DNA of 64,000 nucleotides, taken from assembly GCA_016845065.1 (NCBI GenBank), contig JAERTG010000023.1, forward strand, positions 167,553 to 231,552, written 5' to 3'. This document shows positions 15,573 through 59,371 of the stretch, in pieces; the first letter of the stretch is position 1; each line of letters starts with the position of its first letter. Position numbers and translations under genes: made by a program. The DNA is from Fidelibacterota bacterium. Its GTDB lineage: Bacteria; Fidelibacterota; UBA8477; JABMPR01. A model generated the notes under the pieces. It saw nothing but the letters and a program-made list of their open reading frames with translations. It did no database searches and was not told the DNA's origin.

Positions 15573-15593
15573 CCCTGCTATATCATTAACTCA

Positions 15594-20227: not shown

Positions 20228-20228
20228 T

Positions 20229-23096: not shown

Positions 23097-23199
23097 AGGA
23101 AACTTTATTTTTGGTAAATTCACTTTCAGCGAAATCAAAGAAGCAGCTAGCCCCGGCCACACTCACATGTTTCCGGGGCTAAACTGCAGTTATTTCACC

Positions 23200-26628: not shown

Positions 26629-26686
26629 TATGCTTCCTCCTTCTTTGGTTATGTGAATCATTATAATTCCTTCATTCCTAACATAT

Positions 26687-45055: not shown

Positions 45056-46390
45056 ATGTATCAGGAGTATCACAAACTGACTCATCCCAAAATAAAGGGA
45101 ATAGGGCTCAGCCTGATTATTTTGCTCGGATTGTCCTTCTCAAATTGTTCAAACAACCAGGTCGCATTTGTTAAAGTGGTCTCTGACAGCACAGGCCATA
45201 AACTCACTGTCAATGATACAGATTACTTTGTGAATGGGATGAATTGGGACTACTACCCCATCGGAACCAATTATAAATATAAGTTTTGGGAACAACCTGA
45301 TGATTTCATTAAGTCTGTCCTTGACGAAGAAATGAAAGCACTGCATGACATGGGGGTAAACACTATCCGTCAATATGTTGGTGTACCACCTCACTGGGTT
45401 GAATACATCTACGATACATATGGTATTTTCACAGTCCTGAACCATAGCTTTGCTCGATACGGGATAGAGGTGAATGGTAGCTGGGTGGCTAATGTGGATT
45501 ATGGAGACCCTGCGACACGGGAGATAATTCTTAACGATGTCATTCTGATGGTTGAACAATTTCGCTATGTCCCTGGAGTATTGATGTGGCTATTGGGGAA
45601 TGAAAATAACTACGGATTGATTTGGGAATCGTCTGAGACTGGAGATATGCCGGAAGCACGGGACAGTCACTTCCAGCAAGCACGCGACTTATACTCACTA
45701 TACAATGAAGCGATCAGGATCATCCATATCAGGGATAATCGAAGGCCCGTGGCCATAGCCAATGGCGATGTTCAATTTATAGATCTCATTGTTGAGGAAA
45801 TTGAAAATCTAGATATTTTTGGAACCAACAGTTATCGCGGAGCCTCATTTGAGGACTTGTTCAAGCTTGTAAATGATAAACTGGATATTCCCTTACTCCT
45901 CACTGAATTTGGTGCAGATGCCTTTCATGCTCAAGAACAAAGGGAAGACCAGAGCTCACAAGCGCTAGTCCTCTTGGAAAATTGGCGCGAGATCTATCTG
46001 CAAGCTGCAGGAAATGGTGATGTTGGTAATACAATCGGTGGTCTTACATTCCAATTTAGCGACGGTTGGTGGAAATCAGGTCCTGACGATAAATTGGATA
46101 TACATGATTCCACAGCCTCGTGGTCAAATGGAGGCTACTCCGACGATTTCACTCCTGGCGTCAATAATATGAACGAAGAATGGTTTGGGATTTGTGGACG
46201 TGAAGCTTCTAAAACGCCAAACAGGGATATTCTACGCCCCCGTTTGGCATATTACCTTCTCATGAAGATTCACGCTCTCGATCCCCTCCTGTCATCTCAG
46301 GGAGCCCCAGAAATTAACAAATTCTTCTCAGAATTAGCTGAGACGAATCTGGACTCTCTCAGCTCAATTTATAAGTTTTACAATAATTGA
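45056..46390 (+). CDS. clan GH-A (beta/alpha)8 glycoside hydrolase lipoprotein, family uncertain (GH2-TIM/GH158/GH35-like)
   Basis: The lipobox is LSFSNC. The acid/base-like motif is LLGNENNYG and the nucleophile-like motif is LLTEFGAD. The protein is only 444 aa and lacks the GH2 N-terminal domains. Confidence 0.45.
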   Translation: MYQEYHKLTHPKIKGIGLSLIILLGLSFSNCSNNQVAFVKVVSDSTGHKLTVNDTDYFVNGMNWDYYPIGTNYKYKFWEQPDDFIKSVLDEEMKALHDMGVNTIRQYVGVPPHWVEYIYDTYGIFTVLNHSFARYGIEVNGSWVANVDYGDPATREIILNDVILMVEQFRYVPGVLMWLLGNENNYGLIWESSETGDMPEARDSHFQQARDLYSLYNEAIRIIHIRDNRRPVAIANGDVQFIDLIVEEIENLDIFGTNSYRGASFEDLFKLVNDKLDIPLLLTEFGADAFHAQEQREDQSSQALVLLENWREIYLQAAGNGDVGNTIGGLTFQFSDGWWKSGPDDKLDIHDSTASWSNGGYSDDFTPGVNNMNEEWFGICGREASKTPNRDILRPRLAYYLLMKIHALDPLLSSQGAPEINKFFSELAETNLDSLSSIYKFYNN

Positions 46391-47685
46391 ACCTCTCAGA
46401 TAAAAAGTTGTCACCTCTTTCTGGTGTTGGGTATCGACAGGTAAATATTTCAGGGTTTCGCAAGGTTGATCGGTGGGAAGCCAGGCCATTGGCGGATTCG
46501 GTCCTCCACCTGATATGGCGAGAAAAGCAAATTTCCAGAGCCGAGATAGCACGCCAAATAGGAATATCCCGCTCAACTGTGACTGAGGTGATACGAGATT
46601 TACTCAATACGGGTTATGTCAAGGAAGTTGGGGCTGGGGTTTCCAGCGGTGGTCGAAAACCCATTGTTCTTGAATTCCAGAATAACCATAAACTGATTCT
46701 TGGTATCGATATCGGTGCTACCCATGTTTCTGTGGCTCTACTCAATCTCGGTGGTGAGTTATTGTCATTCAATCGGCAGAGTCATTCTGTCCGAAATGAT
46801 CCGGAGGGGACGCGTAGTCTGGTCTTCAAGCTTTGCGATGCCTCTCTTAGTCAAGTTAACAACGGTCAGCAACGTCTATTAAGTATTGGTGTAGCCCTCC
46901 CCAGCCCTGTAGATCCAGATCACCCCGAATGGGTGTCAGAAGTAGTAATTCCTGCATGGCGCGGGAGGAATGAATTGGATATACTACATAGCCATTATGG
47001 TGTTCCTGTTTATGTAGACAATGATGCCAATCTTGGTGCCCTGGCCGAGTATCGTTGGGGTGCTGGTCGTGGATGTAAGGACCTGACCTATGTCAAGATT
47101 GGGTATGGACTCGGTGCAGGTTTTGTACTCAACGGTGAAATCTATCGCGGTTCCACAGGAATTGCCGGTGAAATGGGACATATGACTGTAGGAGAAAGCG
47201 ATACCCTATGCGAATGCGGATTGAATGGATGTTTAATCACTCTTGTAGGTGGAAAAGCCATGTCTGCCAGAGCTTCTGAGTTGTCAGATAAGTATCCTGA
47301 GAGTCCGTTGACAAAAGGTGATACTGATCTGGAAGCTATTGAAGCTGCAGCTCATAAACATGATGAATTAGCCCTCCAGCTTTACAAAGAAACAACTGAA
47401 TATTTGAGTCTAGCTATTACAGGTTGGATCAATATGATGAACCCCAGTAGAGTCATTCTTGGGGGATCGATGCAGGAGTTCCAGAATCGTCTATTGGACC
47501 CAGTCCGTGAAAAGATCAAGGCATGTTCCATCGTAGGATCAGTGCCTATCACCGACATACGGGCAGGTGAATTAGCACATCAGGCCGAAAGTATTGGTGC
47601 AGCGACTCTGGCCCTGGAAGGCGTCTTTTCAAATCCAGGTTTTTATCGAAATCAAATTGAACCACTAGAGGCATCGAATGTCTAG
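46387..47685 (+). CDS. ROK-family transcriptional regulator (HTH + sugar-kinase-like domain)
   Basis: The N-terminal HTH is ISRAEIARQIGISRSTVTEVI. The glycine-rich motif is ILGIDIGATH. The Zn motif is CECGLNGC. A TTG start overlaps the upstream stop by 4 nt. Confidence 0.8.
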   Translation: MNLSDKKLSPLSGVGYRQVNISGFRKVDRWEARPLADSVLHLIWREKQISRAEIARQIGISRSTVTEVIRDLLNTGYVKEVGAGVSSGGRKPIVLEFQNNHKLILGIDIGATHVSVALLNLGGELLSFNRQSHSVRNDPEGTRSLVFKLCDASLSQVNNGQQRLLSIGVALPSPVDPDHPEWVSEVVIPAWRGRNELDILHSHYGVPVYVDNDANLGALAEYRWGAGRGCKDLTYVKIGYGLGAGFVLNGEIYRGSTGIAGEMGHMTVGESDTLCECGLNGCLITLVGGKAMSARASELSDKYPESPLTKGDTDLEAIEAAAHKHDELALQLYKETTEYLSLAITGWINMMNPSRVILGGSMQEFQNRLLDPVREKIKACSIVGSVPITDIRAGELAHQAESIGAATLALEGVFSNPGFYRNQIEPLEASNV

Positions 47686-47777
47686 TAGACATACTGTTTG
47701 TACTGTTACTGACTATATATGTACTGAAATATGAATCTCTCTCTCTTTAAGAATTGATCAATGAAGGAGTCTGGCAC

Positions 47778-49727
47778 ATGAGTGCAAAAACACACTACAA
47801 AACTGCACGAGAAGATCGAATTTCGCTGAAACAAAAATCAGCATATGCTGTGGGTATGCTGGTGAACAATCTCCAAGCAGCAGCACTACCCGCCATGGTA
47901 GTTATCCTCAACCTGGGACTCGGAATGGATGTCTTATGGGTGGGTCTCATCGGAGCAATCCCCCGCATATTTGATGCAGTCTCGGATCCGCTGTTGGGAT
48001 ACATTTCTGACAATACCAGGACTCGCTGGGGCAGACGCCGACCTTTTATCTTTGCCGGTGCTATCCTTGCAGGAATTATTTTCGCCCTCATGTGGCAATT
48101 ACCTTCTGGGTACATTGATATTCTTGATAAGACACCCATCAAGCAACACCAGATCATTACTGCAGGTGAGTCGGATGCGGTCTTCAATGATGCAGGTGGT
48201 GTATTTTCGGAATATTCCGAGACTTCCATGCCTGATGCAAAATTCACCTTATATGGTCCAGAGGCACTGGCAATAAATCTGGGTTCATCTCTGGCCACAA
48301 ACCTGGATGGCTTCCCTCAGGTTGAGATAAATGTGGATATTCCGGAGTATGAGTCCTTCGAGGTTGTTTTCAATGAATCTGCTGGTGAGTCCTACTCAAT
48401 CCTCCTAACCGAAAACATGTCCGAGGATGGAAAGGGAAATCTATACAAGTTCAGTCTAGCAGATCTTGCCAAAAGCCCCCTTCCTGGAGATCAAACAGGC
48501 AACGATGTTCTAGACATTCAATCGCTGGGTAATATTTCTATACAGCTTACAGGGTTGGTTGGAACTGGAACGGCTACCATTCATTCTGTCAAGCTGCGAA
48601 AAAGTGAAAAATTCTTTGTCACTTATTTCTGGTATTTCATGGCCATGTCCATCCTCTTCTTTCTGGCATACACAGTATTTGCTACCCCTTTCGTAGCCTT
48701 TGGTTACGAAATGACGCCTGATTATCATGAACGTACTCGCCTGCACGCTTTTGCCAACACGGTGGGTCAGTTGGCCTGGTTGGGTGTTCCCTGGTTTTAC
48801 GCCATCATGTCCAGCACTTTATTCAGGGATACTGTACATGGTGCCCGCACCCTGGCGATCGCCGTGGGTATAATTGTCGCTGTATTCGGAATAATTCCTG
48901 CCATTTTCCTCAAGGAAAGACAAACTCTGGAACCCGTAAAAAATGCCGGTAAGAGTATTGGGCAAAACATGAGCGAGTTTTTCAAGGGAATTGTTACCAC
49001 CTTCAAATGTAGTCCATTTGTGAAATTGTGTGGTGCAACCTTTCTCGTTTTTAATGGGTTTCAACTGGGCATGTCCTTCTCCATATATGTCATGATATAC
49101 TATCTGTTTGGTGGTAATGATGGTGATGCGGGAAAACTCATGGGCTGGTTTGGGATGCTTACTTCCATTGCTACCCTTGGTGTAATTCCATTAACTGGAT
49201 GGATTGCTACCAAGATTGGCAAACGTAAAACATTTCTGCTTACAATTTCAATTTCAATCCTAGGGTATGCGATCAAATGGGTTGGGTATAATCCTGATTA
49301 TCCATACTGGCTCTTATATGCTGCACCTTTTGTTGCTTTTGGTACCGGCTCATTGTTTACCCTCATGGGATCCATGATATCGGATGTGTGTGATTATGAT
49401 GAACTTGAAACACATCAACGTCGCGAAGGTGTTTTTGGAGCTATCTACTGGTGGATGGTTAAAGTCGGGATGGCTCTGGCTGGCCTCCTCACAGGGATTT
49501 TACTCAAGGTCTCCGGATTCGATGTGGCACTGGGAGCAGCCCAATCAGAAAATACTTTATTCCTGATTAGAATCTTTGATGTGGGTATACCCCTCCTCAC
49601 CTCTCTGATAGCCCTATGGATTATTTCCACCTACAAACTCACTGAAGTGAAAGCCTACGATATTAGAACACAGCTCGAGGCCAGACGCGGAAAAGTCGCA
49701 ATGGCAGATGCTTCAGAAAACGATTAA
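47778..49727 (+). CDS. GPH-family (MelB-like) MFS sugar:cation symporter with a soluble insertion of about 180 aa
   Basis: The GPH signature is DAVSDPLLGYISDNTRTRWGRRRPF. TM helices are interrupted by a hydrophilic segment at about residues 115-290. The start was chosen at the ATG preceded by the RBS aaggag. Confidence 0.75.
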   Translation: MSAKTHYKTAREDRISLKQKSAYAVGMLVNNLQAAALPAMVVILNLGLGMDVLWVGLIGAIPRIFDAVSDPLLGYISDNTRTRWGRRRPFIFAGAILAGIIFALMWQLPSGYIDILDKTPIKQHQIITAGESDAVFNDAGGVFSEYSETSMPDAKFTLYGPEALAINLGSSLATNLDGFPQVEINVDIPEYESFEVVFNESAGESYSILLTENMSEDGKGNLYKFSLADLAKSPLPGDQTGNDVLDIQSLGNISIQLTGLVGTGTATIHSVKLRKSEKFFVTYFWYFMAMSILFFLAYTVFATPFVAFGYEMTPDYHERTRLHAFANTVGQLAWLGVPWFYAIMSSTLFRDTVHGARTLAIAVGIIVAVFGIIPAIFLKERQTLEPVKNAGKSIGQNMSEFFKGIVTTFKCSPFVKLCGATFLVFNGFQLGMSFSIYVMIYYLFGGNDGDAGKLMGWFGMLTSIATLGVIPLTGWIATKIGKRKTFLLTISISILGYAIKWVGYNPDYPYWLLYAAPFVAFGTGSLFTLMGSMISDVCDYDELETHQRREGVFGAIYWWMVKVGMALAGLLTGILLKVSGFDVALGAAQSENTLFLIRIFDVGIPLLTSLIALWIISTYKLTEVKAYDIRTQLEARRGKVAMADASEND

Positions 49728-49733
49728 GGGAAA

Positions 49734-51446
49734 TTGACAATTATGATCAACGAAAGAATTAAACCACAAGCTTTTTCAATTTTGAGTCTGGCTATACTGT
49801 TTATGTCTTGCAGTCACTTACCAGAACCTACACCTCAAGAACCTCTTCAAAAGCTCACATCAACTTCTGAAATTCTGCTCACTTCAGCCAGTGGGAGTAA
49901 AATTGCAGCCCAGAAAAATGTCAAATTCAAATCTGGGCAGGCTGAGGGAGTTGTCCTCCGGGTTTTCCCTGATAGCGTTAAACAGACCATTGATGGTATA
50001 GGAACCTCGTTCACCGAGTCTTCAGCCTTCGTCCTGGCACATCTAGAGTCAGAACACCGCCAGGAAGTCATGCAAAAGATTTATGGGACTGATGGTGCCA
50101 ATTTCTCCCTCACCCGCACCCATATTGCCTCCTGTGATTTCTCCGTCGAAGGAAAATATTCCTACGCTGAGCAACCTGGTGATACTGCACTTACTTCGTT
50201 CACCATCGCTGAGGATACAGAGGGATTTCCAGTCAGCAAGTACCCTGGCATCAAGGATGAGAAGTACGACCTCCTCCCCATGATTCAGGAAGCCTTAAAA
50301 ATCAAACAAGACCAGCAAGATTCTGATCTCCGAATAATTGCATCGGCGTGGACTGCCCCACCATGGATGAAAGATATTGAAAAGTACTATCAGCCTATGA
50401 CAGCCGATAATGGCTGGCACGGCACTGGCGGGACCCTGAAACCTGAATATGTCAGCACGTACTCTGATTACATCCTTCGCTACCTCGAGGCTTACAAGGC
50501 AGCCGGTGTGAACATCTGGGGTCTTACTCCCGTAAATGAACCCCATGGTAATAATGGCCAGTGGGAAAGCATGAACTTTAGTCCCGAGACACAGAGCGAG
50601 TTTGTCCAGAAACATCTTGGTCCTGGTTTACGGGCAGGAGGTTTTGGAGATGCTAAACTTCTGATCTTTGATCAGAATCGTGATGGTATTGAAGAATGGA
50701 CAGATGTGCTCTTCCCAGCTGATAACGAGCATAAATACATTTATGGAATTGCAGTTCACTGGTATGAGAGTACATACAAAGTTTATGAGGATATTTTTGA
50801 CCGAGTACATGAAAAGTATCCTGAGTACTCAATCGTTCACACAGAGGGATGTATTGATGATCTTGGGAAACCGGCTCCTGATGATTGTACAGATCCAGTT
50901 GGCAGAACAGAAACAAACTGGTTCGACAATGATGATTTCTGGTGGTCTAAGTCCGCCTCTGATTGGGGATATGCAGTTCCATGGACTCCTGGGAATGGCA
51001 AAGATCATCCCCTTTACGTCCCAGTACATCGATATGCCCGCAATATCATAGTCAGCCTTGATCACTGGATGACCGGTTGGGTTGATTGGAACATCGTGTT
51101 GGACAGTCAGGGTGGTCCGAATCATGTCGGTAATTTTTGTGGTGCCCCAATCATGATAGACACAGCTACCCAGCATGTGTATTACACTCCCATATATTCC
51201 GTTTTAGCTCAGTTTAGCCGGACAATACGACCTGGTGATAAAGCACTCAAAACAGTGGTCAACAAAGCAGGTCTAAATGAGGATGATATACATTTCTGCG
51301 CCACTATTAATGCAAGTGGATTGATGAGTGTGCAGGTTTTGAACACATCTTCTTCTCCAATTCACTACAAGCTGCAAGTGGGAGATGAATTTGCTGATGT
51401 AATCATCCCAGAAAATTCAGTACAGACAGTGAGAGTACAGCTGTAA
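49734..51446 (+). CDS. GH30 glycoside hydrolase lipoprotein (beta-1,6-glucanase/glucosylceramidase fold)
   Basis: The ASCDFS motif matches GBA 'MASCDFS'. The acid/base motif is VNEPHGN. The nucleophile region is HTEGC. The lipobox is LFMSC. Confidence 0.8.
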   Translation: MTIMINERIKPQAFSILSLAILFMSCSHLPEPTPQEPLQKLTSTSEILLTSASGSKIAAQKNVKFKSGQAEGVVLRVFPDSVKQTIDGIGTSFTESSAFVLAHLESEHRQEVMQKIYGTDGANFSLTRTHIASCDFSVEGKYSYAEQPGDTALTSFTIAEDTEGFPVSKYPGIKDEKYDLLPMIQEALKIKQDQQDSDLRIIASAWTAPPWMKDIEKYYQPMTADNGWHGTGGTLKPEYVSTYSDYILRYLEAYKAAGVNIWGLTPVNEPHGNNGQWESMNFSPETQSEFVQKHLGPGLRAGGFGDAKLLIFDQNRDGIEEWTDVLFPADNEHKYIYGIAVHWYESTYKVYEDIFDRVHEKYPEYSIVHTEGCIDDLGKPAPDDCTDPVGRTETNWFDNDDFWWSKSASDWGYAVPWTPGNGKDHPLYVPVHRYARNIIVSLDHWMTGWVDWNIVLDSQGGPNHVGNFCGAPIMIDTATQHVYYTPIYSVLAQFSRTIRPGDKALKTVVNKAGLNEDDIHFCATINASGLMSVQVLNTSSSPIHYKLQVGDEFADVIIPENSVQTVRVQL

Positions 51447-51506: not shown

Positions 51507-54500
51507 GTGAAATCTTCTCGTAAACCCAGCTACCAGTTGAACAAGAATGGTGATTTTCTTATAAGTAACTACAATTCAGCTAAGCCATTCTCAAGCTTTT
51601 TCCCAGGAATCGCAGGAAAAATGGGCATACCCATGTGGGTGTTCTATGTGAATCGCGGTCAGGGGATCTGCAGTATGGGTGTCCAGGACAAGGAGAATCC
51701 TATTATGGAATTTCTTCCTGCGAATTGGGCTTATCAATTGGCACCAACACAGGGGTTTAGAACCTTTTTAAAATTTCCTGAGGGTTCAGGAGTCAACTTT
51801 TATGAACCGTTTCAGGATCACTACCAGGATAAGGAAATTGAGCGTACTCAGACCATGCATATTTCACCCTCCCACCTGGTATTGGTAGAAGAAAACAAGA
51901 CTCTCGGGCTTCGTTTTACCGTTGAGTATCATTCTGTCCCTAATGAAAGTTACGCTGGTCTCATAAGAAATCTGCATATAACAAATTTAAACAACATTGA
52001 TGTATCCTTCGAGGGACTGGATGGTCTCCCACTCATTGTTCCTTTTGGCATTGGCAATTTCGGCTTGAAAAATATCCGCCGTTTGATGGAAGCATTTGTT
52101 GAAGTGAAAAACTATGACGCGAAAGCCCCATTGTTTAAGGCCAAAGTTAAGCCCGCTGATCGGCCCGATGTTGAAATGCTGGAACGCGGTAATTTTTATG
52201 TTGGATTTGAGAACATTCACAAGGGGTTGAAGAAACTAACCCCCATCGTTGATCCAGAGCGAATCTTTGGTACTCACAACGATTATATTTATCCTGATTT
52301 TTTCCTGAATACACCTTTTGATGCCCTTCTGGATCATCAGGCATTTGAGAATCGATATCCCTCAGCAATGAGCAAGTTTTCAACAGAATTAGGCGCCGGT
52401 GAGACATATACGGTGAGCTCTGTAATTGGTCATGCTGAATCTCAGGACGCTTTGAACTCCCAGTTACCAAACATCATGAGAAAAGACTATTTCTCCAAAA
52501 AAGCTCAGGAGAGTATCAACATTATCGATGAGTTGACTCAGAAAAATCTGGTGATAAGCCGTGAGCCTATTTTTGACATGTATGTCAGACAAAATTTTCT
52601 GGATAATGTGCTTCGTGGTGGTTTTCCCTATACTCTGGAAGGAAACCAGGCTAAATCTGTACTCCATCTTTATTCGAGAAAACATGGTGATCTTGAGCGC
52701 GATTATAATGACTATCGTATCACTCCCTCTCACTATTCCCAGGGTAACGGCAATTTTAGGGACATCAATCAAAATCGTCGCTCTGATTTATTGTTTAACC
52801 CTGATGTGGGCTCCGGAAACCTGGAACATTTTGTCAATCTCATTCAACTCGATGGGTTCAACCCCTTGGTACTAAAGGAAGTTAGGTACAGGGTTGAAGA
52901 TTTGAATTCTGCCACCCAAATAGTTAACAGTCATTTTAACTCAGGATTATCGTTTGAACTCCTCACCTTCCTCCAGGAGCCTGTCAGTCCAGGAGAATTG
53001 CTGGATTTTCTAAGGCAAAAAGACGTTGTGTTTGATGACAATGCTGATGTCTTATTGGGTGACCTCCTGGGAAGCTGCAAAAAAATCAATGATACAGATT
53101 TTGCAGAGGGATACTGGTCAGATCATTGGACTTATAACCTAGACCTTCTTGAAAATTATCTGAGCATTTATCCTGAGAGACTGAGACATATTCTATTTGA
53201 TTATCAGGAATTCACATTTCACGATAGTGATCATCGTGTACTTCCTCGTTCTGATAAATATGTAATCTGGGACGGTAAAGCGATGCAGCTAGATGCTGTT
53301 TTTCATGACAAAGAGAAAGCCACTCTCATCGCTTCCAGGAGCAAAGATCAACACCTCATGCGAGATGCTCATGGGCTGGGTCAAGTGGTTCAGACGACAC
53401 TTTTTGTGAAATTACTCAGCATTATCACCAATAAAATCGCTTCTCTGGATCCTTCAGGTATAGGTGTCGAAATGGAGACAGATAAGCCCAATTGGTATGA
53501 CGCATTAAATGGCTTGCCTGGTGTACTTGGTTCAAGTCTCAGTGAAACTATAGAAATCAAGCGTCACGCTGAATTCATTTTATCTGCTATGGATGAAATC
53601 CATCTTGCAGAAGAGATAGCTCTATACATTGAGCTACATGAATTCACCAGTATGGTATTCGCGGCACTCTCGAATGGTGGGAATGATTATACATATTGGG
53701 ATACCGTAAGCTCTGCAAAGGAAGAGTATCGTTCCAAAACCAGGATGGGTATCCATGGATCTGAAATAACTGTAAGTCAGGATTGGATCCAGGAGTTTCT
53801 CCAGGCTGTTGTAGGTAAGGTTGATCAAAGTATTGAGAAAGCGCTCTACTCGGATACGGGTATCCCTGGAACCTATTTTTATCATGAAGTCGCGGATTAT
53901 CAGCTTATCGATCGTATTGATGATCCGGGTACGAAGCATCCGAAACTCAATGGACGAGGCTTCCCTTGTTACCAGGCGAACTCCTTTAAATTAGTACGTC
54001 TACCTCTTTTTCTTGAGGGTCCCGTCCACTATCTCCGCACACTTCCAGAACGAGATATGGCCAAACAGCTGGCTAAAGATATTAAAAATAGTGGTCTTTA
54101 TGACAACGAGCTGGAAATGTATAAGGTTAATGCTGAATTGAGCGACCAACCCATGGAAATTGGTCGTGCAAGGGTGTTCTCGCCGGGATGGTTTGAGAAT
54201 GAATCGATATGGTTGCACATGGAATACAAATATATGCTGGAGCTACTTCGCAATGGTTTGTATGAAATTTTCTTCCAGGATTTCAAAAAAGTGTTCATCC
54301 CCTTTCTTGACCCTGAAGTGTACGGCCGCAGCATTTTGGAAAATTCATCCTTTCTGGTGAGCAGCGCAAATCCAAATCCTGACCTTCATGGTACTGGATT
54401 CGTCGCCCGACTTAGTGGCGCAACAGCTGAATTCATTCATATCCTCATGCAGATGGCCATGGGGCCAAGAGCTTTTTCAATCAATTCTACAGGTGAATTG

Positions 54501-54824
54501 AACTTTGCGCTGAAGCCCATGCTTCCCTCCTGGTTGTTTACGGAAGCAGAGCAAAAAACAACCGTCCTGATGGATGGAGTTCAGACTTCAATCTCAACGC
54601 CAGCCCACAGCTTCACCTTTATGCTGCTTAGTAATATACTGGTGACTTATCACAACCCCAAGCAGAAGGACACTTTTGGTCCCGATGGGGTTACACCTCA
54701 GGAATGGCTTCTTACGGACCCTAAGGGCCAATCTCAGAGCTTTCAGGGCTCCCTTCTGGGAGGGGAGCAAGCGGAGCAAATTAGATCGAAACAGATTAAA
54801 CGTATTGAGATCACACTAGGTTGA
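51507..54824 (+). CDS. large cytoplasmic protein, candidate beta-1,3-glucan/laminaribiose phosphorylase (GH149/GH161/GH94-like)
   Basis: The protein is 1105 aa with no signal peptide. It is flanked by GH30 and GH17 in one operon. Its size and N-terminal beta-sandwich-like start fit family GH149. Catalytic motifs were not confirmed. Confidence 0.35.
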   Translation: MKSSRKPSYQLNKNGDFLISNYNSAKPFSSFFPGIAGKMGIPMWVFYVNRGQGICSMGVQDKENPIMEFLPANWAYQLAPTQGFRTFLKFPEGSGVNFYEPFQDHYQDKEIERTQTMHISPSHLVLVEENKTLGLRFTVEYHSVPNESYAGLIRNLHITNLNNIDVSFEGLDGLPLIVPFGIGNFGLKNIRRLMEAFVEVKNYDAKAPLFKAKVKPADRPDVEMLERGNFYVGFENIHKGLKKLTPIVDPERIFGTHNDYIYPDFFLNTPFDALLDHQAFENRYPSAMSKFSTELGAGETYTVSSVIGHAESQDALNSQLPNIMRKDYFSKKAQESINIIDELTQKNLVISREPIFDMYVRQNFLDNVLRGGFPYTLEGNQAKSVLHLYSRKHGDLERDYNDYRITPSHYSQGNGNFRDINQNRRSDLLFNPDVGSGNLEHFVNLIQLDGFNPLVLKEVRYRVEDLNSATQIVNSHFNSGLSFELLTFLQEPVSPGELLDFLRQKDVVFDDNADVLLGDLLGSCKKINDTDFAEGYWSDHWTYNLDLLENYLSIYPERLRHILFDYQEFTFHDSDHRVLPRSDKYVIWDGKAMQLDAVFHDKEKATLIASRSKDQHLMRDAHGLGQVVQTTLFVKLLSIITNKIASLDPSGIGVEMETDKPNWYDALNGLPGVLGSSLSETIEIKRHAEFILSAMDEIHLAEEIALYIELHEFTSMVFAALSNGGNDYTYWDTVSSAKEEYRSKTRMGIHGSEITVSQDWIQEFLQAVVGKVDQSIEKALYSDTGIPGTYFYHEVADYQLIDRIDDPGTKHPKLNGRGFPCYQANSFKLVRLPLFLEGPVHYLRTLPERDMAKQLAKDIKNSGLYDNELEMYKVNAELSDQPMEIGRARVFSPGWFENESIWLHMEYKYMLELLRNGLYEIFFQDFKKVFIPFLDPEVYGRSILENSSFLVSSANPNPDLHGTGFVARLSGATAEFIHILMQMAMGPRAFSINSTGELNFALKPMLPSWLFTEAEQKTTVLMDGVQTSISTPAHSFTFMLLSNILVTYHNPKQKDTFGPDGVTPQEWLLTDPKGQSQSFQGSLLGGEQAEQIRSKQIKRIEITLG

Positions 54825-54864: not shown

Positions 54865-55950
54865 ATGAAACATTCACGATATTTAAAAATCTTTACAGTA
54901 GTTTTGACTGGCATGATCATATCATGTCAACCCCAAGTACCTGCAGGACCTGAAATGGATAATATTCCTGTTCCAAATGAGAACGCGGTTAATCAAGAAA
55001 AAACTTTCACTACCAGGCCATTCGTGCCTTTTCTAGATGGTAGATGGATCGGTAATGCTATTTCTTTTGGATGCTATCGTGAAGGTCAAGCTCCCCACGT
55101 GAAGGGACCCTCTGAGGAGGAAATCCTAGAAGATTTGAACATACTTTCAAAACATTGGAATCTTGTAAGAGTTTATGGTTCTGATGACGATAGTGAACGT
55201 GTGTTAAAGGTGATTCATGAGCATCAACTCCCCATGAAGGTGATGTTGGGAATCTGGCTTGAGAATGAGACAAAACGTCCAGAACGAAAACCTCATAATA
55301 TGGAGCAGGTTCGACGCGGTATTGAATTAGCCAATCGATTTCCCAAAGAGGTGATCGCAATTAATGTTGGGAATGAAACTCAAGTTGAATGGTCCTGGCA
55401 TGGAATGGAAATGGAAAATCTGATCAAGTATATCAGGACCGTGAGAGAAAGTGTGCCGCAGCCGGTAACAACAGCTGATGACTATAATTTTTGGAACAAG
55501 GATCACAGCCGGATGGTGGCTAAGGAGATCGATTTTATTGGTCTTCATGCATATCCCCTATGGAATGGAAAAACTCTAGAGAAATCTGTCGCCTGGATAG
55601 ATGCGATTTACAAATCCGCCAAAGCTTTTCACCCAGATCGGGAGATCATACTCAGTGAAACAGGCTGGGCAACAAAACATGACCCATCGAAACAAGGTCC
55701 AGGAGAAGAGGGTGCACTGGTCAAAACGGAGGTCAGTGTAAAGGCTCAGCAATCCTTCCTTGTGGAATTCAATAAATGGGTGGAAGAGCAGCAGGTAACC
55801 GTTTTTCTTTTTGAAGCCTTCGATGAACCATGGAAAGGTGGCGGTCTTGAATCTGGACCAGATGTAATGGAAAAACACTGGGGGGTTTTCAACGAAGATC
55901 GTACCCCTAAAGAATCCTTGAAAGCTTTCCTAAATACTAAGAAACATTAA
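54865..55950 (+). CDS. GH17 endo-beta-1,3-glucanase lipoprotein
   Basis: The GH17 signature is ILSETGWAT (nucleophile). The acid/base motif is INVGNE. The lipobox is IISCQ. Confidence 0.8.
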   Translation: MKHSRYLKIFTVVLTGMIISCQPQVPAGPEMDNIPVPNENAVNQEKTFTTRPFVPFLDGRWIGNAISFGCYREGQAPHVKGPSEEEILEDLNILSKHWNLVRVYGSDDDSERVLKVIHEHQLPMKVMLGIWLENETKRPERKPHNMEQVRRGIELANRFPKEVIAINVGNETQVEWSWHGMEMENLIKYIRTVRESVPQPVTTADDYNFWNKDHSRMVAKEIDFIGLHAYPLWNGKTLEKSVAWIDAIYKSAKAFHPDREIILSETGWATKHDPSKQGPGEEGALVKTEVSVKAQQSFLVEFNKWVEEQQVTVFLFEAFDEPWKGGGLESGPDVMEKHWGVFNEDRTPKESLKAFLNTKKH

Positions 55951-56013: not shown

Positions 56014-58344
56014 GTGTCAAACATGAAAGCAGGATTAGTCTTTAAAATAATACTGGCAACGATCCTAGGGTTGAGTGGATCTCTAGTTGCTCAAGTAGCC
56101 CCCATTAATTTTGAAGCTGAAGGTATTGGAGCAGATTGGACGTGGACATCTTTTGAAAACGACACAAATCCTCCTCTGACCATTGTTTCAAACCCTGGTG
56201 CAGACACTGTGAACGCCTCTGCAATGGTAGCTTCCTACACCACATTAACCACAGGTCAACCCTGGGCTGGTTTTGAATCTCTTCACGGTGCAGATATCGG
56301 ACCCTTCAGTTTTGATGTGACCAATAGTACGATTAAGCTTATGGTATACAAAACCGTTATCAGTGATGTCGGTGTTAAATTCGCCGAAGCCAATGGTGAA
56401 GCACAGCCAGAGGTAAAGGTTGCAAACACCTTGATCAACCAATGGGAAGAGCTGACATTTGACCTTTCTGGCAGCATCGGTGCTGGAATAACTGGCATAG
56501 TTGATCAGATCATTATTTTTCCCGACTTTGACCTGGTTGGAAGAACGACAGACAATACTTGTTACATAGATAATATCACTTTCTCCGGACAGGATCTACC
56601 CCCAGCGCCTGCTGCTCATGCACCATTACCTACAGCTCCTGCAGATGATGTCATTTCAGTATTCAGTGATTCATATACAAATCTTGCCCAAACCAATTTC
56701 AATCCTGGTTGGGGTCAGGAAACGGTAATGTCCGAGGTGATGATAGAGGGTAATAACACACTGCTTTACTCAAGCTTGGACTACCAGGGTATAGAGCTGG
56801 GAAGTGCTCAGGACCTAACTGAAATGGATTCGGTGCATGTGGACTTCTGGAGCGCTAATTCAACCGAATTGCAGATCTTTCTCATCAGTCAGTCCTCAGG
56901 AGAACAGGCCTACTCACTACCATTCGCTACTGAAACCTGGGTAAGTACCTACGTTCCCCTGTCTCATTTCACCGATCTTGGACTCTCAATAAGTGATATT
57001 TTCCAGCTTAAGTTTGTAGGCAATGGCGATGTGTATATTGACAATATTTATTTTGAAGGCGAAGGTGGTGGCCTGGAACCAACCCCCTATTTCCCAATCG
57101 ACTTTGAGATTGATGGTCATGGAGCTGACTGGACCTGGACTACCTTTGAAAATGGTGCCAACGATCCACTTGTTATCGGTACCAATCCAAGCACCACTGG
57201 AGTAAACGCTTCTGCAACCGTGGCATCAATGACAACCATGACTACGGGTGCGGCTTGGGCTGGTGTGGAGTCTCAACATGGTGCAGACATCGGTACTTTT
57301 TCACTTGATGCCAGCAATAGCACAATAAGTATCATGGTGTACAAACCCATTCTTAGTGATGTGGGGATTAAACTGGCAAAGCCTGATGGTTGGTCCATGG
57401 GAGAAATAAAAGTAGCCAATTCTGTTATTAATGAGTGGGAAGAGTTGACCTTCGATTTTTCATCACAGATGCAAGACGGCTATGATCAGATCGTCATTTT
57501 CCCAGACTTTGATCTTGCTGGCAGAACCACTGACAATACGTGTTACTTTGACAACATCACTTTTTCTGGTCAAGTGGTGCCAGCATCTCCTGTGGCTCAC
57601 GCTCCAATCCCTACATTGGCAGCAGAGGATGTTGTTTCGATATTTAGCGATTCCTATCCAAGCACTGCAGGTGTCAATTTGAACCCTGGCTGGGGACAGG
57701 CAACGGTGGTAAGTGAGGTAGAAATTGAACAAAACAATACTTTAGTTTATTCTGATTTGAATTATCAGGGCACAGAATTTCAAGCCATTGATGTAAGTGG
57801 TATGACTCACTTTCACCTGGACTTCTGGACAGGAAACTCAACTGCCCTGAATTTCTTTGTCATCAGTCAGACCCCTACAGTTGATAGTGATTACTTCACT
57901 CTCGCCATCACACCTGAACAGTGGATTAGCTTGGATATCCCCTTGACTGCATACCCAAATGTTGATCTAGCAGATGTGTTTCAGTTCAAGGTCGAAGGAA
58001 ATGGAACGATTTATTGGGACAACTTTTACTTCTATTCAAATACGGTTGCTGTTGATGATGAGAGAAAAGAGGTGATTCCCAGTGAATTTATTCTCGAACA
58101 GAATTTCCCTAATCCTTTCAACCCTGGAACCTCAGTAAACTACAGAATCGCTGAATCCGGGTCTGTAACACTCAAGATTTATAACATTTTGGGGCAAGAG
58201 GTTGTGACCTTGGTTGATGGATTTGCGTCACCTGGCTATTATAGTACTCATTTAGATGCGAACCACCTGGCCGCTGGCACCTACTTCTATGCGCTTACAT
58301 CTGGAAATCAGAGAATTGTTAAAAAGATGGTGTTGATCAAATAG
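56014..58344 (+). CDS. secreted non-catalytic multidomain protein ((A-B)x2 + T9SS CTD), candidate laminarin-binding surface protein
   Basis: A signal peptide is present. Two tandem units of about 340 aa each contain a CBM4/6-like domain (…DNTCY.DNITFSG) plus a 150-aa domain shared with ORF 23200..26628. The C-terminus is …FPNPFNPGT… CTD. Confidence 0.6.
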   Translation: MSNMKAGLVFKIILATILGLSGSLVAQVAPINFEAEGIGADWTWTSFENDTNPPLTIVSNPGADTVNASAMVASYTTLTTGQPWAGFESLHGADIGPFSFDVTNSTIKLMVYKTVISDVGVKFAEANGEAQPEVKVANTLINQWEELTFDLSGSIGAGITGIVDQIIIFPDFDLVGRTTDNTCYIDNITFSGQDLPPAPAAHAPLPTAPADDVISVFSDSYTNLAQTNFNPGWGQETVMSEVMIEGNNTLLYSSLDYQGIELGSAQDLTEMDSVHVDFWSANSTELQIFLISQSSGEQAYSLPFATETWVSTYVPLSHFTDLGLSISDIFQLKFVGNGDVYIDNIYFEGEGGGLEPTPYFPIDFEIDGHGADWTWTTFENGANDPLVIGTNPSTTGVNASATVASMTTMTTGAAWAGVESQHGADIGTFSLDASNSTISIMVYKPILSDVGIKLAKPDGWSMGEIKVANSVINEWEELTFDFSSQMQDGYDQIVIFPDFDLAGRTTDNTCYFDNITFSGQVVPASPVAHAPIPTLAAEDVVSIFSDSYPSTAGVNLNPGWGQATVVSEVEIEQNNTLVYSDLNYQGTEFQAIDVSGMTHFHLDFWTGNSTALNFFVISQTPTVDSDYFTLAITPEQWISLDIPLTAYPNVDLADVFQFKVEGNGTIYWDNFYFYSNTVAVDDERKEVIPSEFILEQNFPNPFNPGTSVNYRIAESGSVTLKIYNILGQEVVTLVDGFASPGYYSTHLDANHLAAGTYFYALTSGNQRIVKKMVLIK

Positions 58345-58915: not shown

Positions 58916-59371
58916 TTATGGTATTAGGGCGGTGTTTTGACCGCTACTATTATAAAGGCTTATTGCCCCATCATGAGTTGTAGTATGTGAAAGCGAAATG
59001 GTTTCTTGACCGCTATTATTATAGAGACCTATTGCCCCGCCATGGGCAGTAGTATGTGAAATATTAATGGTGTTTTGACCGCTGCTATTATAGAGGTCTA
59101 TTGCCCCATCATCGGCTATAGTGTGTGAAAGCGAAATGGTTTTTTGACCAGTACTATTCAAGATATCTATTACCCCACTGCCATTTGAGGTGGTTACGGC
59201 CATTATACGATTCCCTTTTTTATCGATAAAATTTATCCAGCCCCTCTTGGGAATATTTATGTCACCCACTGTAATACTATCAAACGTTGTATTTGTTGCC
59301 CCTATTGACATAAATCCAATCACAGCAACTAGAAACCCAATTATTACACTTCTAGGGTCTAACTTTTTCAT
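58916..59371 (-). CDS. small membrane-anchored/secreted protein with about 22-aa tandem repeats (ILNSTGQKTISLSHTxxxDGAIxLYNSSGQ)
   Basis: There is an N-terminal hydrophobic anchor. Four imperfect repeats are encoded by DNA repeats of about 66 bp. Confidence 0.45.
   Translation of the reverse strand: MKKLDPRSVIIGFLVAVIGFMSIGATNTTFDSITVGDINIPKRGWINFIDKKGNRIMAVTTSNGSGVIDILNSTGQKTISLSHTIADDGAIDLYNSSGQNTINISHTTAHGGAIGLYNNSGQETISLSHTTTHDGAISLYNSSGQNTALIP
58928..59190. repeat. about 4 tandem direct repeats of about 66 bp (coding, inside ORF 58916..59371)
   Basis: The gaccgct…attgcccc…gtgtgaaagcgaaatg units recur with roughly 80-85% identity. Confidence 0.65.

What the first reader, a model, noticed from the sequence alone, without database searches (positions are those of the whole stretch)
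56014..58344. (A-B)x2 + CTD architecture, with the 150-aa B domain shared between two separate surface proteins
ORF 56014..58344 is an internal tandem duplication of about 340 aa each. Domain A carries …W.G.ES.HGADIG…DNTCY.DNITFSG, and the two copies are 55-60% identical. Domain B is clearly homologous to a domain in ORF 23200..26628: ISVFSDSYTNLAQTNFNPGWGQETV…DNIYFEGE versus ISIYSDAYTDIAGTNFNPGWGQATV…DNIYFHGE. I do not recognise the B domain. It may be a new beta-glucan-binding module specific to this lineage.
Basis: seen in the sequence. Interest (0 to 1): 0.6.

Follow-up and report, generated by a model that had tools for sequence, protein, structure and literature searches.

The report
Secreted laminarin-binding protein with uncharted module
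This gene encodes a secreted, non-catalytic sugar-capturing protein of a marine Marinimicrobia bacterium: one of its two repeated modules is an already described laminarin-binding module, and the other is a widespread but still uncharacterised module that travels with laminarin-degrading genes across many bacteria.

Summary
ORF 56014..58344 (776 aa) reads signal peptide, A1-B1, A2-B2, type IX secretion (T9SS) C-terminal domain. The halves are 57% identical (E=3e-129). B recurs in ORF 23200..26694 (54% and 41% identity).

- **Domain A is known.** It is homologous to PDB 8QX6, "Novel laminarin-binding CBM X584" (profile E=2.8e-15, 30% identity, top Foldseek hit). This is the CBMxx family of Zühlke et al.
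- **Domain B is uncatalogued.** Pfam, NCBIfam and PDB sequences give no significant match, and sources call its carriers "hypothetical protein".
- **B looks like a carbohydrate-binding module (CBM).** Its model (pLDDT 92) is a beta-jelly-roll closest to CBM11, CBM8 and CBM29 (12-17% identity).
- **B is not lineage-specific.** 3,480 clusters at 50% identity match it, mostly Bacteroidota, with up to 11 tandem copies per protein.
- **B travels with laminarin genes.** GH16 lies within 10 kb in 73 of 80 genomic loci, GH17 in 54, GH30 in 50. B is also fused to GH16 catalytic modules.

The window gene follows GH30, a GH161 phosphorylase and GH17. The best reading is a T9SS-exported multivalent laminarin-capture protein in which B is an uncharacterised CBM family. 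Binding is untested.

The parts
56014..58344 (+). Whole gene: 776-aa secreted non-catalytic protein laid out as signal peptide, A1-B1, A2-B2, T9SS C-terminal domain
56014..56094 (+). N-terminal Sec signal peptide, about aa 1-27 (…LSGSLVAQ|VAP). An alternative ATG start lies 3 codons downstream
   Evidence: Read directly from the translation. No signal-peptide predictor was run
56095..56604 (+). Domain A1 (aa 28-197): CBMxx/X584-type laminarin-binding module
   Evidence: The local A HMM places it at 26-197. The A profile matches 8QX6 at E=2.8e-15. The AF2 model has pLDDT 92.4 and its top Foldseek hit is 8qx6 at 30% identity
56641..57066 (+). Domain B1 (aa 210-351): uncatalogued CBM-like beta-jelly-roll
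   Evidence: AF2 pLDDT 92.4. Foldseek finds CBM11, CBM8 and CBM29. No Pfam, NCBIfam or PDB sequence match
57082..57585 (+). Domain A2 (aa 357-524): second CBMxx/X584-type module, 63% identical to A1
   Evidence: phmmer match to 8qx6_A falls in this copy, aa 369-485, E=1.5e-6.
57622..58044 (+). Domain B2 (aa 537-677): second B module, 49% identical to B1. It lacks the family-conserved Glu at B1 position 88
58105..58344 (+). T9SS type A C-terminal sorting domain (aa 698-776) plus stop codon
   Evidence: PF18962 at 37.8 bits and TIGR04183 at 45.2 bits, both above their cutoffs
25369..25809 (-). Third copy of domain B, inside the 1164-aa T9SS surface protein (aa 296-442)
   Evidence: 54% and 41% identity to B1 and B2 by BLASTP. 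Alignment A1
23200..26694 (-). 1164-aa multi-domain T9SS-CTD protein carrying one B module. It lies between an SSS symporter gene and a TonB-dependent receptor gene
   Evidence: The orthologue in Neomarinimicrobiota MAG L002 is 71% identical and in the same gene order
54865..55950 (+). GH17 beta-1,3-glucanase, immediately upstream. The N-terminus has a lipobox-like sequence, MIISC
   Evidence: PF00332 at 35.1 bits against a cutoff of 28.2. N-terminus read
51507..54824 (+). GH161 beta-1,3-glucan phosphorylase (1105 aa) with no signal peptide, so cytoplasmic
   Evidence: PDB 9qqk 'gh161 phosphorylase', E=7.6e-216
49734..51446 (+). GH30 glycosidase, lipoprotein-like N-terminus
   Evidence: PF02055 E=7.7e-62. 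N-terminus read
47754..49727 (+). MFS_2 sugar transporter
   Evidence: PF13347 E=1.4e-62. Homologues lie in 59 of 80 B-containing loci
46387..47685 (+). ROK-family regulator with an N-terminal helix-turn-helix
45056..46390 (+). Clan GH-A TIM-barrel lipoprotein with weak GH2_C similarity, family unassigned
   Evidence: PF02836 E=7.9e-6. Only weak GH2 hits in the PDB. Homologues lie in 59 of 80 B-containing loci
11833..12942 (-). GH16 catalytic domain with a T9SS CTD: candidate secreted endo-laminarinase partner
   Evidence: PF00722 E=8.7e-26 and PF18962 E=4.4e-6
13070..14164 (-). Second GH16, lipoprotein-like N-terminus
   Evidence: PF00722 E=4.9e-24. Homologues lie in 73 of 80 B-containing loci
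20229..23162 (-). TonB-dependent receptor (CarboxypepD_reg, Plug and barrel domains): candidate oligosaccharide importer

Best explanation
The gene encodes a non-catalytic, multivalent laminarin-capture protein of a Marinimicrobia (Neomarinimicrobiota) bacterium.

**Shown**
- It has a Sec signal peptide and a T9SS type A C-terminal domain.
- It carries two A modules that belong to the crystallographically characterised laminarin-binding CBM family (8QX6, X584, CBMxx).
- It carries two B modules with a CBM-type beta-jelly-roll model.
- It is the last gene of a same-strand run: ROK regulator, MFS transporter, GH30, GH161 phosphorylase, GH17.
- B-containing proteins are a conserved component of equivalent loci in Bacteroidota, and B is fused to GH16 catalytic modules.

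**Inferred**
- The protein crosses the inner membrane by Sec and the outer membrane by T9SS. The CTD is then removed and the protein is either tethered to the cell surface or released.
- The A modules bind the beta-1,3-glucan chain in a cleft.
- B is a second, uncharacterised CBM family that also binds laminarin, either the backbone or its beta-1,6 branches. This would give up to four binding sites and higher avidity for a dilute soluble glycan.
- Bound laminarin is cut by the T9SS-secreted GH16. Oligosaccharides enter through the TonB-dependent receptor.
- Oligosaccharides are then trimmed by the lipoprotein-like GH17, GH30 and TIM-barrel enzymes, taken up by the MFS or SSS transporters and phosphorolysed by GH161.
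- The B site is proposed to lie on the face formed by invariant, alternating, non-hydrophobic residues H275/D277/W279 and Q331, with W233 and W309 (p1 numbering).
For: - **Architecture and duplication:**
- **T9SS CTD above curated cutoffs:**
- **A is the 8QX6 family:** phmmer E=1.5e-6. The profile gives E=2.8e-15 over nearly the whole chain. The AF2 model (pLDDT 92.4) has 8qx6 'Novel laminarin-binding CBM X584' as its top Foldseek hit at 30% identity and TM 0.66-0.69. It also hits 4BQ2, the remote neighbour reported for CBMxx (preprint). CBMxx binds laminarin by affinity gel electrophoresis, ITC and a laminaritriose complex.
- **B has a CBM fold:** pLDDT 92.4. Foldseek finds CBM11 bound to a mixed-linkage glucan tetrasaccharide (E=1.5e-6), then CBM8, CBM29, CBM28/30 and CBM6. 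Individual B copies give sub-threshold Pfam hits to CBM_11, CBM30, CIA30 and SGBP_B_XBD.
- **Context in the window:** GH17, GH161 (E=7.6e-216) and GH30. GH16 and the TonB-dependent receptor sit next to the second B protein.
- **Context elsewhere:** within +-10 kb of B in 80 loci from different species, GH16 occurs in 73, GH17 in 54, GH30 in 50, GH161 in 37 and MFS_2 in 59. Gene orders are shown. One locus (L049) reads SusC- and SusD-sized ORFs (not annotated), then a B-A-A protein, then GH16.
- **Fusions:** A and B share a polypeptide in 31 of the 150 best hits. B is fused to GH16 in at least 7 proteins (Pfam GH16 in 3 of 39).
- **Conserved residues:** across 149 B domains of 25-61% identity.
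Against: - No binding data exist for B or for this protein.
- B's structural neighbours are only 12-17% identical and bind varied glycans (beta-1,4/1,3-1,4-glucan, mannan, xylan, agarose), so fold alone does not give specificity.
- Context cannot separate binding of the beta-1,3 backbone from binding of beta-1,6 branches, mixed-linkage glucan or a partner protein.
- The window's A modules lack the long loop present in 8QX6 between the WEEL strand and the next strand. The cleft may therefore be shallower, and affinity is unknown.
- The 80 loci are those most similar to B1, so they may represent one orthologous sub-family of B.
- T9SS machinery is seen in the window only as a sub-threshold PorV-like gene (26.3 bits against a cutoff of 27).
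- Model coordinates could not be inspected, so the proposed binding face is inferred from the sequence pattern only.
Confidence: 0.68

Rival explanations
1. B is not a glycan-binding module. It is a structural spacer or a protein-protein interaction module that presents the A modules away from the cell surface, or docks the protein onto the transporter or enzymes. Only A would bind laminarin.
For: - Many surface glycan-binding proteins contain non-binding beta-sandwich spacers. The Ig-like modules of Cf-SGBP did not bind laminarin.
- B has no sequence-detectable relationship to a characterised CBM.
Against: - Many proteins consist of B repeats only, up to 11 copies with no A, in the gene position where a binding protein is expected.
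- B is appended directly to GH16 catalytic modules without A.
- The fold is a CBM jelly-roll rather than an Ig or PKD spacer.
- Polar and aromatic residues that alternate with hydrophobic core positions on beta-strands are near-invariant across 25-61% identity.
Confidence: 0.15
2. B is a CBM with a specificity other than the beta-1,3 backbone. Candidates are the beta-1,6 side chains or pustulan-type glucan, mixed-linkage beta-1,3/1,4-glucan, or another co-occurring algal glycan. A and B would then recognise different features of the substrate.
For: - The top structural neighbour is CBM11 in complex with a beta-1,3-1,4 tetrasaccharide.
- Loci with B usually contain GH30 (50 of 80), a family that includes beta-1,6-glucanases (my knowledge of the family).
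- Alternating two different modules in (A-B)x2 suggests complementary rather than redundant roles.
- The related Pfam family SGBP_B_XBD binds xyloglucan, and one B copy passes its threshold.
Against: - The only catalytic module found fused to B in the sampled proteins is GH16.
- The surrounding genes (GH16, GH17, GH161) all act on beta-1,3 linkages.
- There is no positive evidence for any other ligand.
Confidence: 0.15
3. One reading: B is a new beta-glucan-binding module specific to this lineage.
For: - B is absent from Pfam, NCBIfam and the PDB.
- The exact protein is not on record in the public collections searched.
Against: - At E<=1e-3, 3,480 representative clusters match.
- At least 502 genomic loci carry B. 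They come from Saprospiraceae, Lewinellaceae, Chitinophagales, Flavobacteriaceae, Bacteroidales, Marinilabiliales, Cytophagales and Neomarinimicrobiota.
- Cultured carriers include Flavilitoribacter nigricans and Flavobacterium cellulosilyticum.
- A Melioribacteraceae MAG also carries it.
Confidence: 0.02

Closest known systems
Cf-SGBP of Christiangramia forsetii and its CBMxx modules (PDB 8QX6, 'Novel laminarin-binding CBM X584'). Source: Zühlke et al., bioRxiv 10.1101/2023.09.07.556657, published as Environ Microbiol 2024, 26:e16624. From my memory only, the published CAZy number is CBM102
   Same: - Non-catalytic, multimodular and elongated, with repeated CBMs, and encoded in a laminarin utilisation locus with GH16, GH17 and GH30.
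- Domain A is homologous to CBMxx_IV (E=2.8e-15, 30% identity, same fold).
- Internal duplication of modules.
   Different: - Cf-SGBP is a lipoprotein with two Ig-like modules and four CBMxx, next to SusC/D.
- The window protein has a Sec signal peptide and a T9SS CTD, no Ig modules and no adjacent SusC/D.
- It alternates CBMxx-type modules with the unrelated B module (hhalign probability 5%).
- Its A modules lack the long cleft-flanking loop seen in 8QX6.
- The host is Marinimicrobia, not Bacteroidota.
CBM11 (Pfam PF03425; Clostridium thermocellum Lic26A-Cel5E module, PDB 6R31 and 1V0A)
   Same: - Best structural match to the B model (Foldseek E=1.5e-6, TM 0.64).
- A beta-jelly-roll of similar size that binds beta-glucans.
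- Some B copies give sub-threshold PF03425 hits.
   Different: - Only 15-17% identity.
- The window's B copies give no PF03425 hit at E<=1.
- Different taxonomic and genomic setting: cellulosomal Firmicutes enzymes against FCB-group laminarin loci.
SGBP_B_XBD (Pfam PF18329), the xyloglucan-binding domain of a Bacteroides surface glycan-binding protein B
   Same: - A C-terminal beta-sandwich binding domain of a non-catalytic surface glycan-binding protein in a polysaccharide utilisation locus.
- One B copy in a homologue (P0144, aa 853-969) passes the curated threshold (39.9 against 26.4 bits). Another copy is sub-threshold over most of the profile.
   Different: - The window's B1, B2 and the copy in ORF 23200..26694 do not match PF18329.
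- PF18329 was not among the 25 most frequent families in 39 B proteins.
- The ligand context is xyloglucan rather than laminarin.
T9SS type A cargo proteins (Por_Secre_tail, TIGR04183)
   Same: - A C-terminal sorting domain above the curated cutoffs.
- An N-terminal Sec signal peptide.
- Many B-family proteins share this CTD (18 of 39).
   Different: T9SS export and surface attachment have been studied in Bacteroidota (my knowledge). They are only inferred for this Marinimicrobia genome.

Membership tests
CBMxx / X584 laminarin-binding CBM family (domain A) | Significant sequence similarity to the founding member (Cf-SGBP CBMxx_IV, PDB 8QX6) over the whole module | tested here: met
   phmmer E=1.5e-6. 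The profile of 20 A domains gives E=2.8e-15, profile positions 13-156 of 168 against chain residues 7-162 of 165
CBMxx / X584 laminarin-binding CBM family (domain A) | Beta-sandwich fold like the crystal structure | tested here: met
   AF2 model pLDDT 92.4. Top Foldseek hits are 8qx6_A and 8qx6_B at 30% identity, TM 0.66-0.69. 4BQ2 is also recovered, as the authors reported for CBMxx
CBMxx / X584 laminarin-binding CBM family (domain A) | Conservation of the ligand-contacting residues and the two cleft-flanking loops | tested here: inconclusive
   The contact residues are given only in a figure that is not held. The alignment shows the window's A lacks the roughly 17-residue insertion of 8QX6 after the WEEL strand. 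The authors report that loop variation gives shallower clefts in some members
CBMxx / X584 laminarin-binding CBM family (domain A) | Binding of laminarin | not testable with these tools
   Needs affinity gel electrophoresis or ITC with recombinant A1 and A2
T9SS type A cargo | C-terminal sorting domain above the curated thresholds, plus an N-terminal signal peptide | tested here: met
   PF18962 at 37.8 bits (cutoff 27) and TIGR04183 at 45.2 bits (cutoff 23), at aa 698-773. The signal-like N-terminus was read
T9SS type A cargo | T9SS machinery present in the same genome | tested here: inconclusive
   Only a PorV-like gene at 15594..16691, at 26.3 bits against a cutoff of 27. The rest of the genome is not available
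CBM11 (PF03425), for domain B | Match to the family profile at the curated threshold | tested here: not met
   No hit at E<=1 for the window protein. Homologous B copies reach 11.6-25.5 bits against a cutoff of 27. Structural similarity only
SGBP_B_XBD (PF18329), for domain B | Match to the family profile at the curated threshold | tested here: not met
   No hit for the window protein. One B copy of homologue P0144 passes at 39.9 bits, which suggests a remote relationship between the families rather than membership
CBMxx / X584, for domain B | Detectable homology to A or to 8QX6 | tested here: not met
   hhalign of the A profile against the B profile gives probability 5%, with only the last strand (YxDNIxF) aligned. 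The B profile finds no 8QX6 match in the PDB at E<=10. 8qx6 is not among B's 50 best Foldseek hits
Bacteroidota SusE/F-type or PUL-encoded SGBP lipoproteins | Lipoprotein signal, and a gene adjacent to a SusC/SusD pair | tested here: not met
   No lipobox Cys in the N-terminus. The neighbours are GH17, GH161 and GH30 with no SusC/D. Anchoring or export is by T9SS CTD instead. It works like an SGBP but is not a member of that class in the strict sense

The most novel reading that the evidence does not exclude
Domain B is the founding material for a new carbohydrate-binding module family that recognises laminarin or its beta-1,6 branches. It would be as widespread in Bacteroidota and Marinimicrobia laminarin loci as the recently defined CBMxx and CBMyy families, and so far invisible to Pfam, NCBIfam and PDB-based annotation. 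If so, a substantial part of the 'hypothetical' proteins of marine and freshwater laminarin utilisation loci would be glycan-capture proteins. The A-B alternation would be a two-specificity capture device.
Probability: 0.45. Interest if true: 0.6.

Novelty: new variant of a known kind. Interest (0 to 1): 0.45.

Why it matters
Laminarin is one of the largest fluxes of fixed carbon in the ocean. The proteins that capture it at the cell surface decide which bacteria get it.

Two laminarin-binding CBM families were defined only in 2023-2024. Domain A shows that one of them reaches beyond Bacteroidota into Marinimicrobia (SAR406), a poorly cultured deep-ocean phylum, where it is delivered by T9SS rather than as a lipoprotein.

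Domain B is a third module. It is abundant and unannotated, it shares the same loci, and it is fused to GH16 laminarinases.

Characterising B would:
- improve annotation of thousands of "hypothetical" proteins;
- sharpen metagenomic and metaproteomic read-outs of laminarin use;
- test whether mixed-module proteins recognise different features of branched glucans.

This is an incremental gain for CAZyme biology (a candidate new CBM family), not a new kind of system.

Tried and rejected
- **PDB sequence search with the B profile** at E<=10 found only a spurious hit. phmmer with homologue P0144 also found nothing relevant.
- **hhalign of the A profile against the B profile** showed no relationship. 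I therefore rejected the idea that B is a divergent copy of A or CBMxx.
- **PF26918** appeared in the precomputed annotations of some B proteins and looked like a possible Pfam model of B. It is 'Ig_Eae', an Ig-like N-terminal domain. Rejected.
- **GH158 assignment for ORF 45056..46390.** I suspected this, but phmmer against the PDB found only weak GH2 TIM-barrel similarity. I left the family unassigned.
- **The exact protein is not on record** in the public assemblies.
- **The first word-indexed protein search** found only 12 fragments. The exhaustive HMMER search showed that this under-represented the family.
- **Literature searches** for a described CBM family matching B found nothing. The published version of the Zühlke paper is not held, so the CBM102/CBM103 numbering rests on my memory plus one indirect mention of CBM103.
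Full report
**1. The observation**

ORF 56014..58344 (+) is real and encodes 776 aa. I split the protein at residue 355 and compared the halves. They align over 320 residues at 57% identity, E=3e-129.

The domain limits come from local HMMs and alignments:
- signal peptide: about aa 1-27
- A1: aa 28-197
- Pro/Ala linker
- B1: aa 210-351
- A2: aa 357-524
- B2: aa 537-677
- C-terminal domain: aa 698-776

A1 and A2 are 63% identical. B1 and B2 are 49% identical.

The C-terminal domain passes the curated thresholds of Pfam Por_Secre_tail (37.8 bits against 27) and TIGR04183 (45.2 bits against 23).

B recurs in the minus-strand ORF 23200..26694, a 1164-aa protein that also carries a T9SS CTD. BLASTP gives 54% identity for B1 (E=3e-55) and 41% for B2 (E=2e-37).

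**2. Domain A is a known laminarin-binding module**

A phmmer search of the whole protein against PDB sequences hit 8qx6_A at E=1.5e-6.

A profile of 20 A domains raised this to E=2.8e-15. It covers profile positions 13-156 of 168 and chain residues 7-162 of 165.

The AlphaFold model of A1 has pLDDT 92.4. Its best Foldseek match is 8qx6, titled "Novel laminarin-binding CBM X584" and released 2024-09-18. Identity is 30% and TM is 0.66-0.69. The GH50-associated module 4BQ2 appears further down the list.

This matches the description of CBMxx in Zühlke et al. (bioRxiv 10.1101/2023.09.07.556657):
- four tandem CBMxx modules in the C. forsetii surface glycan-binding protein;
- a 2.0 Å structure of CBMxx_IV with laminaritriose;
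- 4BQ2 as the only remote structural neighbour;
- laminarin binding shown by affinity gel electrophoresis and ITC.

From memory, the published name is CBM102. I could not verify the number because the published paper is not held.

The window's A modules lack a long insertion that 8QX6 has after the conserved WEEL strand. The authors report that loop differences make some CBMxx clefts shallower, so affinity here may differ.

**3. Domain B is uncatalogued but not rare**

B gives no significant match in:
- Pfam-A or NCBIfam;
- PDB sequences, even with a 15-sequence profile at E<=10.

It is also unrelated to A in a profile-profile comparison. hhalign probability is 5%, and only the final YxDNIxF strand aligns.

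Its AlphaFold model is confident (pLDDT 92.4, pTM 0.87) and almost all-beta. Foldseek against the PDB returns carbohydrate-binding jelly-rolls at 12-17% identity:
- CBM11 with a mixed-linkage glucan tetrasaccharide (E=1.5e-6, TM 0.64)
- CBM8
- CBM29
- CBM28/30
- CBM6

Individual B copies in homologues give sub-threshold Pfam hits to CBM_11, CBM30, CIA30 and SGBP_B_XBD. A single copy (P0144, aa 853-969) passes the SGBP_B_XBD threshold. B therefore sits in the CBM11-like part of the galactose-binding-domain-like fold space without belonging to a curated family.

An exhaustive HMMER search of 1.84 billion cluster representatives found 3,480 proteins at E<=1e-3 and 1,364 at E<=1e-30. Many carry 3-11 tandem B copies.

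Sources name these proteins "hypothetical protein" or "T9SS type A sorting domain-containing protein". Precomputed annotations from a newer Pfam release give nothing for B-only proteins. The one candidate accession, PF26918, turned out to be an Ig-like domain.

**4. Distribution**

The best 80 break down as follows:
- nearly all are Bacteroidota: Saprospiraceae, Lewinellaceae, Chitinophagales, Flavobacteriaceae, Bacteroidales, Marinilabiliales, Cytophagales;
- cultured strains include Flavilitoribacter nigricans, Flavobacterium cellulosilyticum, Phaeodactylibacter xiamenensis, Foetidibacter luteolus and Ancylomarina sp.;
- two are Candidatus Neomarinimicrobiota MAGs;
- two contigs come from one MAG labelled Lentisphaeria.

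"Specific to this lineage" is refuted.

The window itself is Marinimicrobia-like. Its SSS, B-protein, TonB-receptor, 1187-aa and PorV-like genes are collinear with the Neomarinimicrobiota contigs L002 and L031. Identities are 77-90% for the flanking genes and 64-71% for the B-containing protein.

The closest orthologue of the target gene is in L001. It is 782 aa, has the same A-B-A-B order and is 67.6% identical.

(A-B)x2 also occurs in P0140, P0161, P0032, P0078 and P0148. The duplication therefore predates the divergence of these organisms.

**5. What B travels with**

In the window the target gene ends a same-strand run:
- TIM-barrel lipoprotein (weak GH2_C similarity)
- ROK regulator
- MFS_2 transporter
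- GH30
- GH161 beta-1,3-glucan phosphorylase (PDB 9qqk, E=7.6e-216)
- GH17

The second B protein lies next to a TonB-dependent receptor and two GH16 genes, one of which has a T9SS CTD.

I searched the window's enzymes with phmmer against all ORFs of the 80 loci, within +-10 kb of the B match:

| Family | Loci with a homologue (of 80) |
|---|---|
| GH16 | 73 |
| TIM-barrel protein (weak GH2_C similarity) | 59 |
| MFS_2 | 59 |
| GH17 | 54 |
| GH30 | 50 |
| GH161 | 37 |

Typical Bacteroidota gene order is: TIM-barrel protein of about 1050 aa, B-repeat protein, GH16, GH161/149-like, GH17, GH30, MFS. In Ancylomarina a B-A-A protein follows two ORFs of SusC and SusD size, which I did not annotate.

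Within polypeptides:
- A and B co-occur in 31 of the 150 best hits.
- B is fused to GH16 catalytic modules in at least seven proteins, for example P0030, P0057 and the 2435-aa P0020 with two GH16 and nine B copies.
- GH16 was the only catalytic family seen among the 25 most frequent Pfam families in 39 B proteins. Por_Secre_tail occurred in 18 of them.

Being appended to a glycoside hydrolase, repeated in tandem, and sitting in the binding-protein slot of a utilisation locus is how CBMs behave.

**6. Proposed mechanism**

*Shown.* The protein has export signals, two modules of a proven laminarin-binding family, two CBM-fold modules of an uncatalogued family, and a laminarin-catabolic neighbourhood.

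*Inferred.* Sec and T9SS export place the protein at or beyond the outer membrane. A binds the beta-1,3 chain. B provides further binding sites, either for the same chain or for beta-1,6 branches. Multivalency raises capture of dilute soluble laminarin. The secreted GH16, the TonB-dependent receptor, the periplasmic lipoprotein glycosidases, the transporters and the cytoplasmic GH161 complete the pathway.

*Conservation in B.* Across 149 B domains of 25-61% identity, the residues conserved in at least 80% include Y12, W24, H66, D68, W70, E88, W100, Q122 and the DNxYF strand (B1 numbering; add 209 for the protein).
- H66, D68 and W70 alternate with hydrophobic residues on one strand, as does Q122 on another. 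That is the pattern expected of a solvent-exposed functional face.
- I could not inspect model coordinates, so this placement is inference.
- B2 lacks the conserved Glu88.

**7. Rivals**

- **B is a non-binding spacer or docking module (about 0.15).** This is disfavoured by B-only proteins, by GH16-B fusions and by the conserved polar and aromatic face.
- **B binds something other than the beta-1,3 backbone (about 0.15).** Candidates are beta-1,6 branches or mixed-linkage glucan. The data here cannot separate this from the main explanation. It would make the A-B alternation more interesting.
- **The lineage-specific reading is refuted.**

**8. Novelty and verdict**

The protein is a new architectural variant of a known kind, a multimodular laminarin-binding protein. 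Here it occurs in Marinimicrobia, is exported by T9SS and mixes two module types.

A is known. B is a strong candidate for a new CBM family. It may already have an internal CAZy "X" number, which I cannot check.

No experiment supports binding by B. The result is a well-supported, testable lead of moderate interest rather than a surprise.

Noticed in passing
window 45056..46390 (+): A 444-aa lipoprotein-like TIM-barrel with only weak GH2_C similarity (Pfam E=7.9e-6; weak GH2 hits in the PDB). A homologous domain lies within 10 kb of the B match in 59 of 80 loci. In the Bacteroidota loci whose gene order I inspected it is part of an ORF of about 1050 aa directly upstream of the B-repeat protein. 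It looks like an unassigned glycosidase family tied to laminarin loci.
   Followed up: partly
window 14052..20251 (-): Three genes lie downstream of the TonB-dependent receptor: a 1187-aa secreted protein with no Pfam hit, a PorV-like protein (26.3 bits against a cutoff of 27) and a 506-aa lipoprotein with no Pfam hit. The first two are 82-86% identical and collinear in both Neomarinimicrobiota MAGs (L002, L031). The 506-aa lipoprotein is seen only as a 79% identical fragment at the end of L002. They may be the Marinimicrobia counterpart of SusD or of accessory outer-membrane components.
   Followed up: partly
window 23200..26694 (-), aa 40-290 and 449-1070 of the product: Besides its one B module, the 1164-aa protein has two N-terminal repeats with weak CBM48, AMPK1_CBM and X25 similarity. 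It also has a roughly 210-aa module ending in WFDNLKA (jelly-roll-like), a 'choice-of-anchor X' motif (NF041940, E=5.7e-10) and further repeats before the T9SS CTD. None of these were characterised.
   Followed up: no
window 58916..59371 (-): A 151-aa ORF just downstream of the target has a signal or TM-like N-terminus. It also has about three imperfect repeats of roughly 22 aa (…ISLSHTxxxDGAIxLYNSSGQNT…). No Pfam hit.
   Followed up: no
window 38734..40824 (-): A GH5 cellulase-family catalytic domain is fused to a C-terminal CBM9 (PF06452, E=6.9e-41). The window therefore also encodes a beta-1,4-glycan-type enzyme near the laminarin genes. No homologue was found in the 80 B loci.
   Followed up: partly
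L001 and L009 (contigs CAZOBQ010000127.1 and CAZOBQ010000117.1): The MAG labelled 'uncultured Lentisphaeria bacterium binchicken_co28_69' carries the closest orthologue of the target (67.6% identity, A-B-A-B). It also carries an SSS symporter 85% identical to the window's, followed by a B protein. The window's other relatives are Neomarinimicrobiota, so the label may be a mis-binning or a taxonomy-mapping problem.
   Followed up: partly
L013 2258..5137, L057 2190..5054, L062 2251..5151: Large ORFs of about 955-967 aa sit upstream of the B-protein clusters in Bacteroidota. Their size and position recall the 940-aa membrane-spanning beta-glucan regulator BguR described in bioRxiv 10.64898/2026.01.10.698779. 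Not tested.
   Followed up: no
B-family homologues, e.g. P0175, P0198, P0213 (first B copy): A longer B sub-type of about 160 aa begins …VPVDxW/YYNGYW… and carries an inserted acidic loop, KLVDFGADGxxGGGDDxEHE. It usually precedes a canonical B copy and follows an Ig-like (Big_2 / Ig_Eae) domain. It may have a different specificity or bind a metal ion.
   Followed up: no
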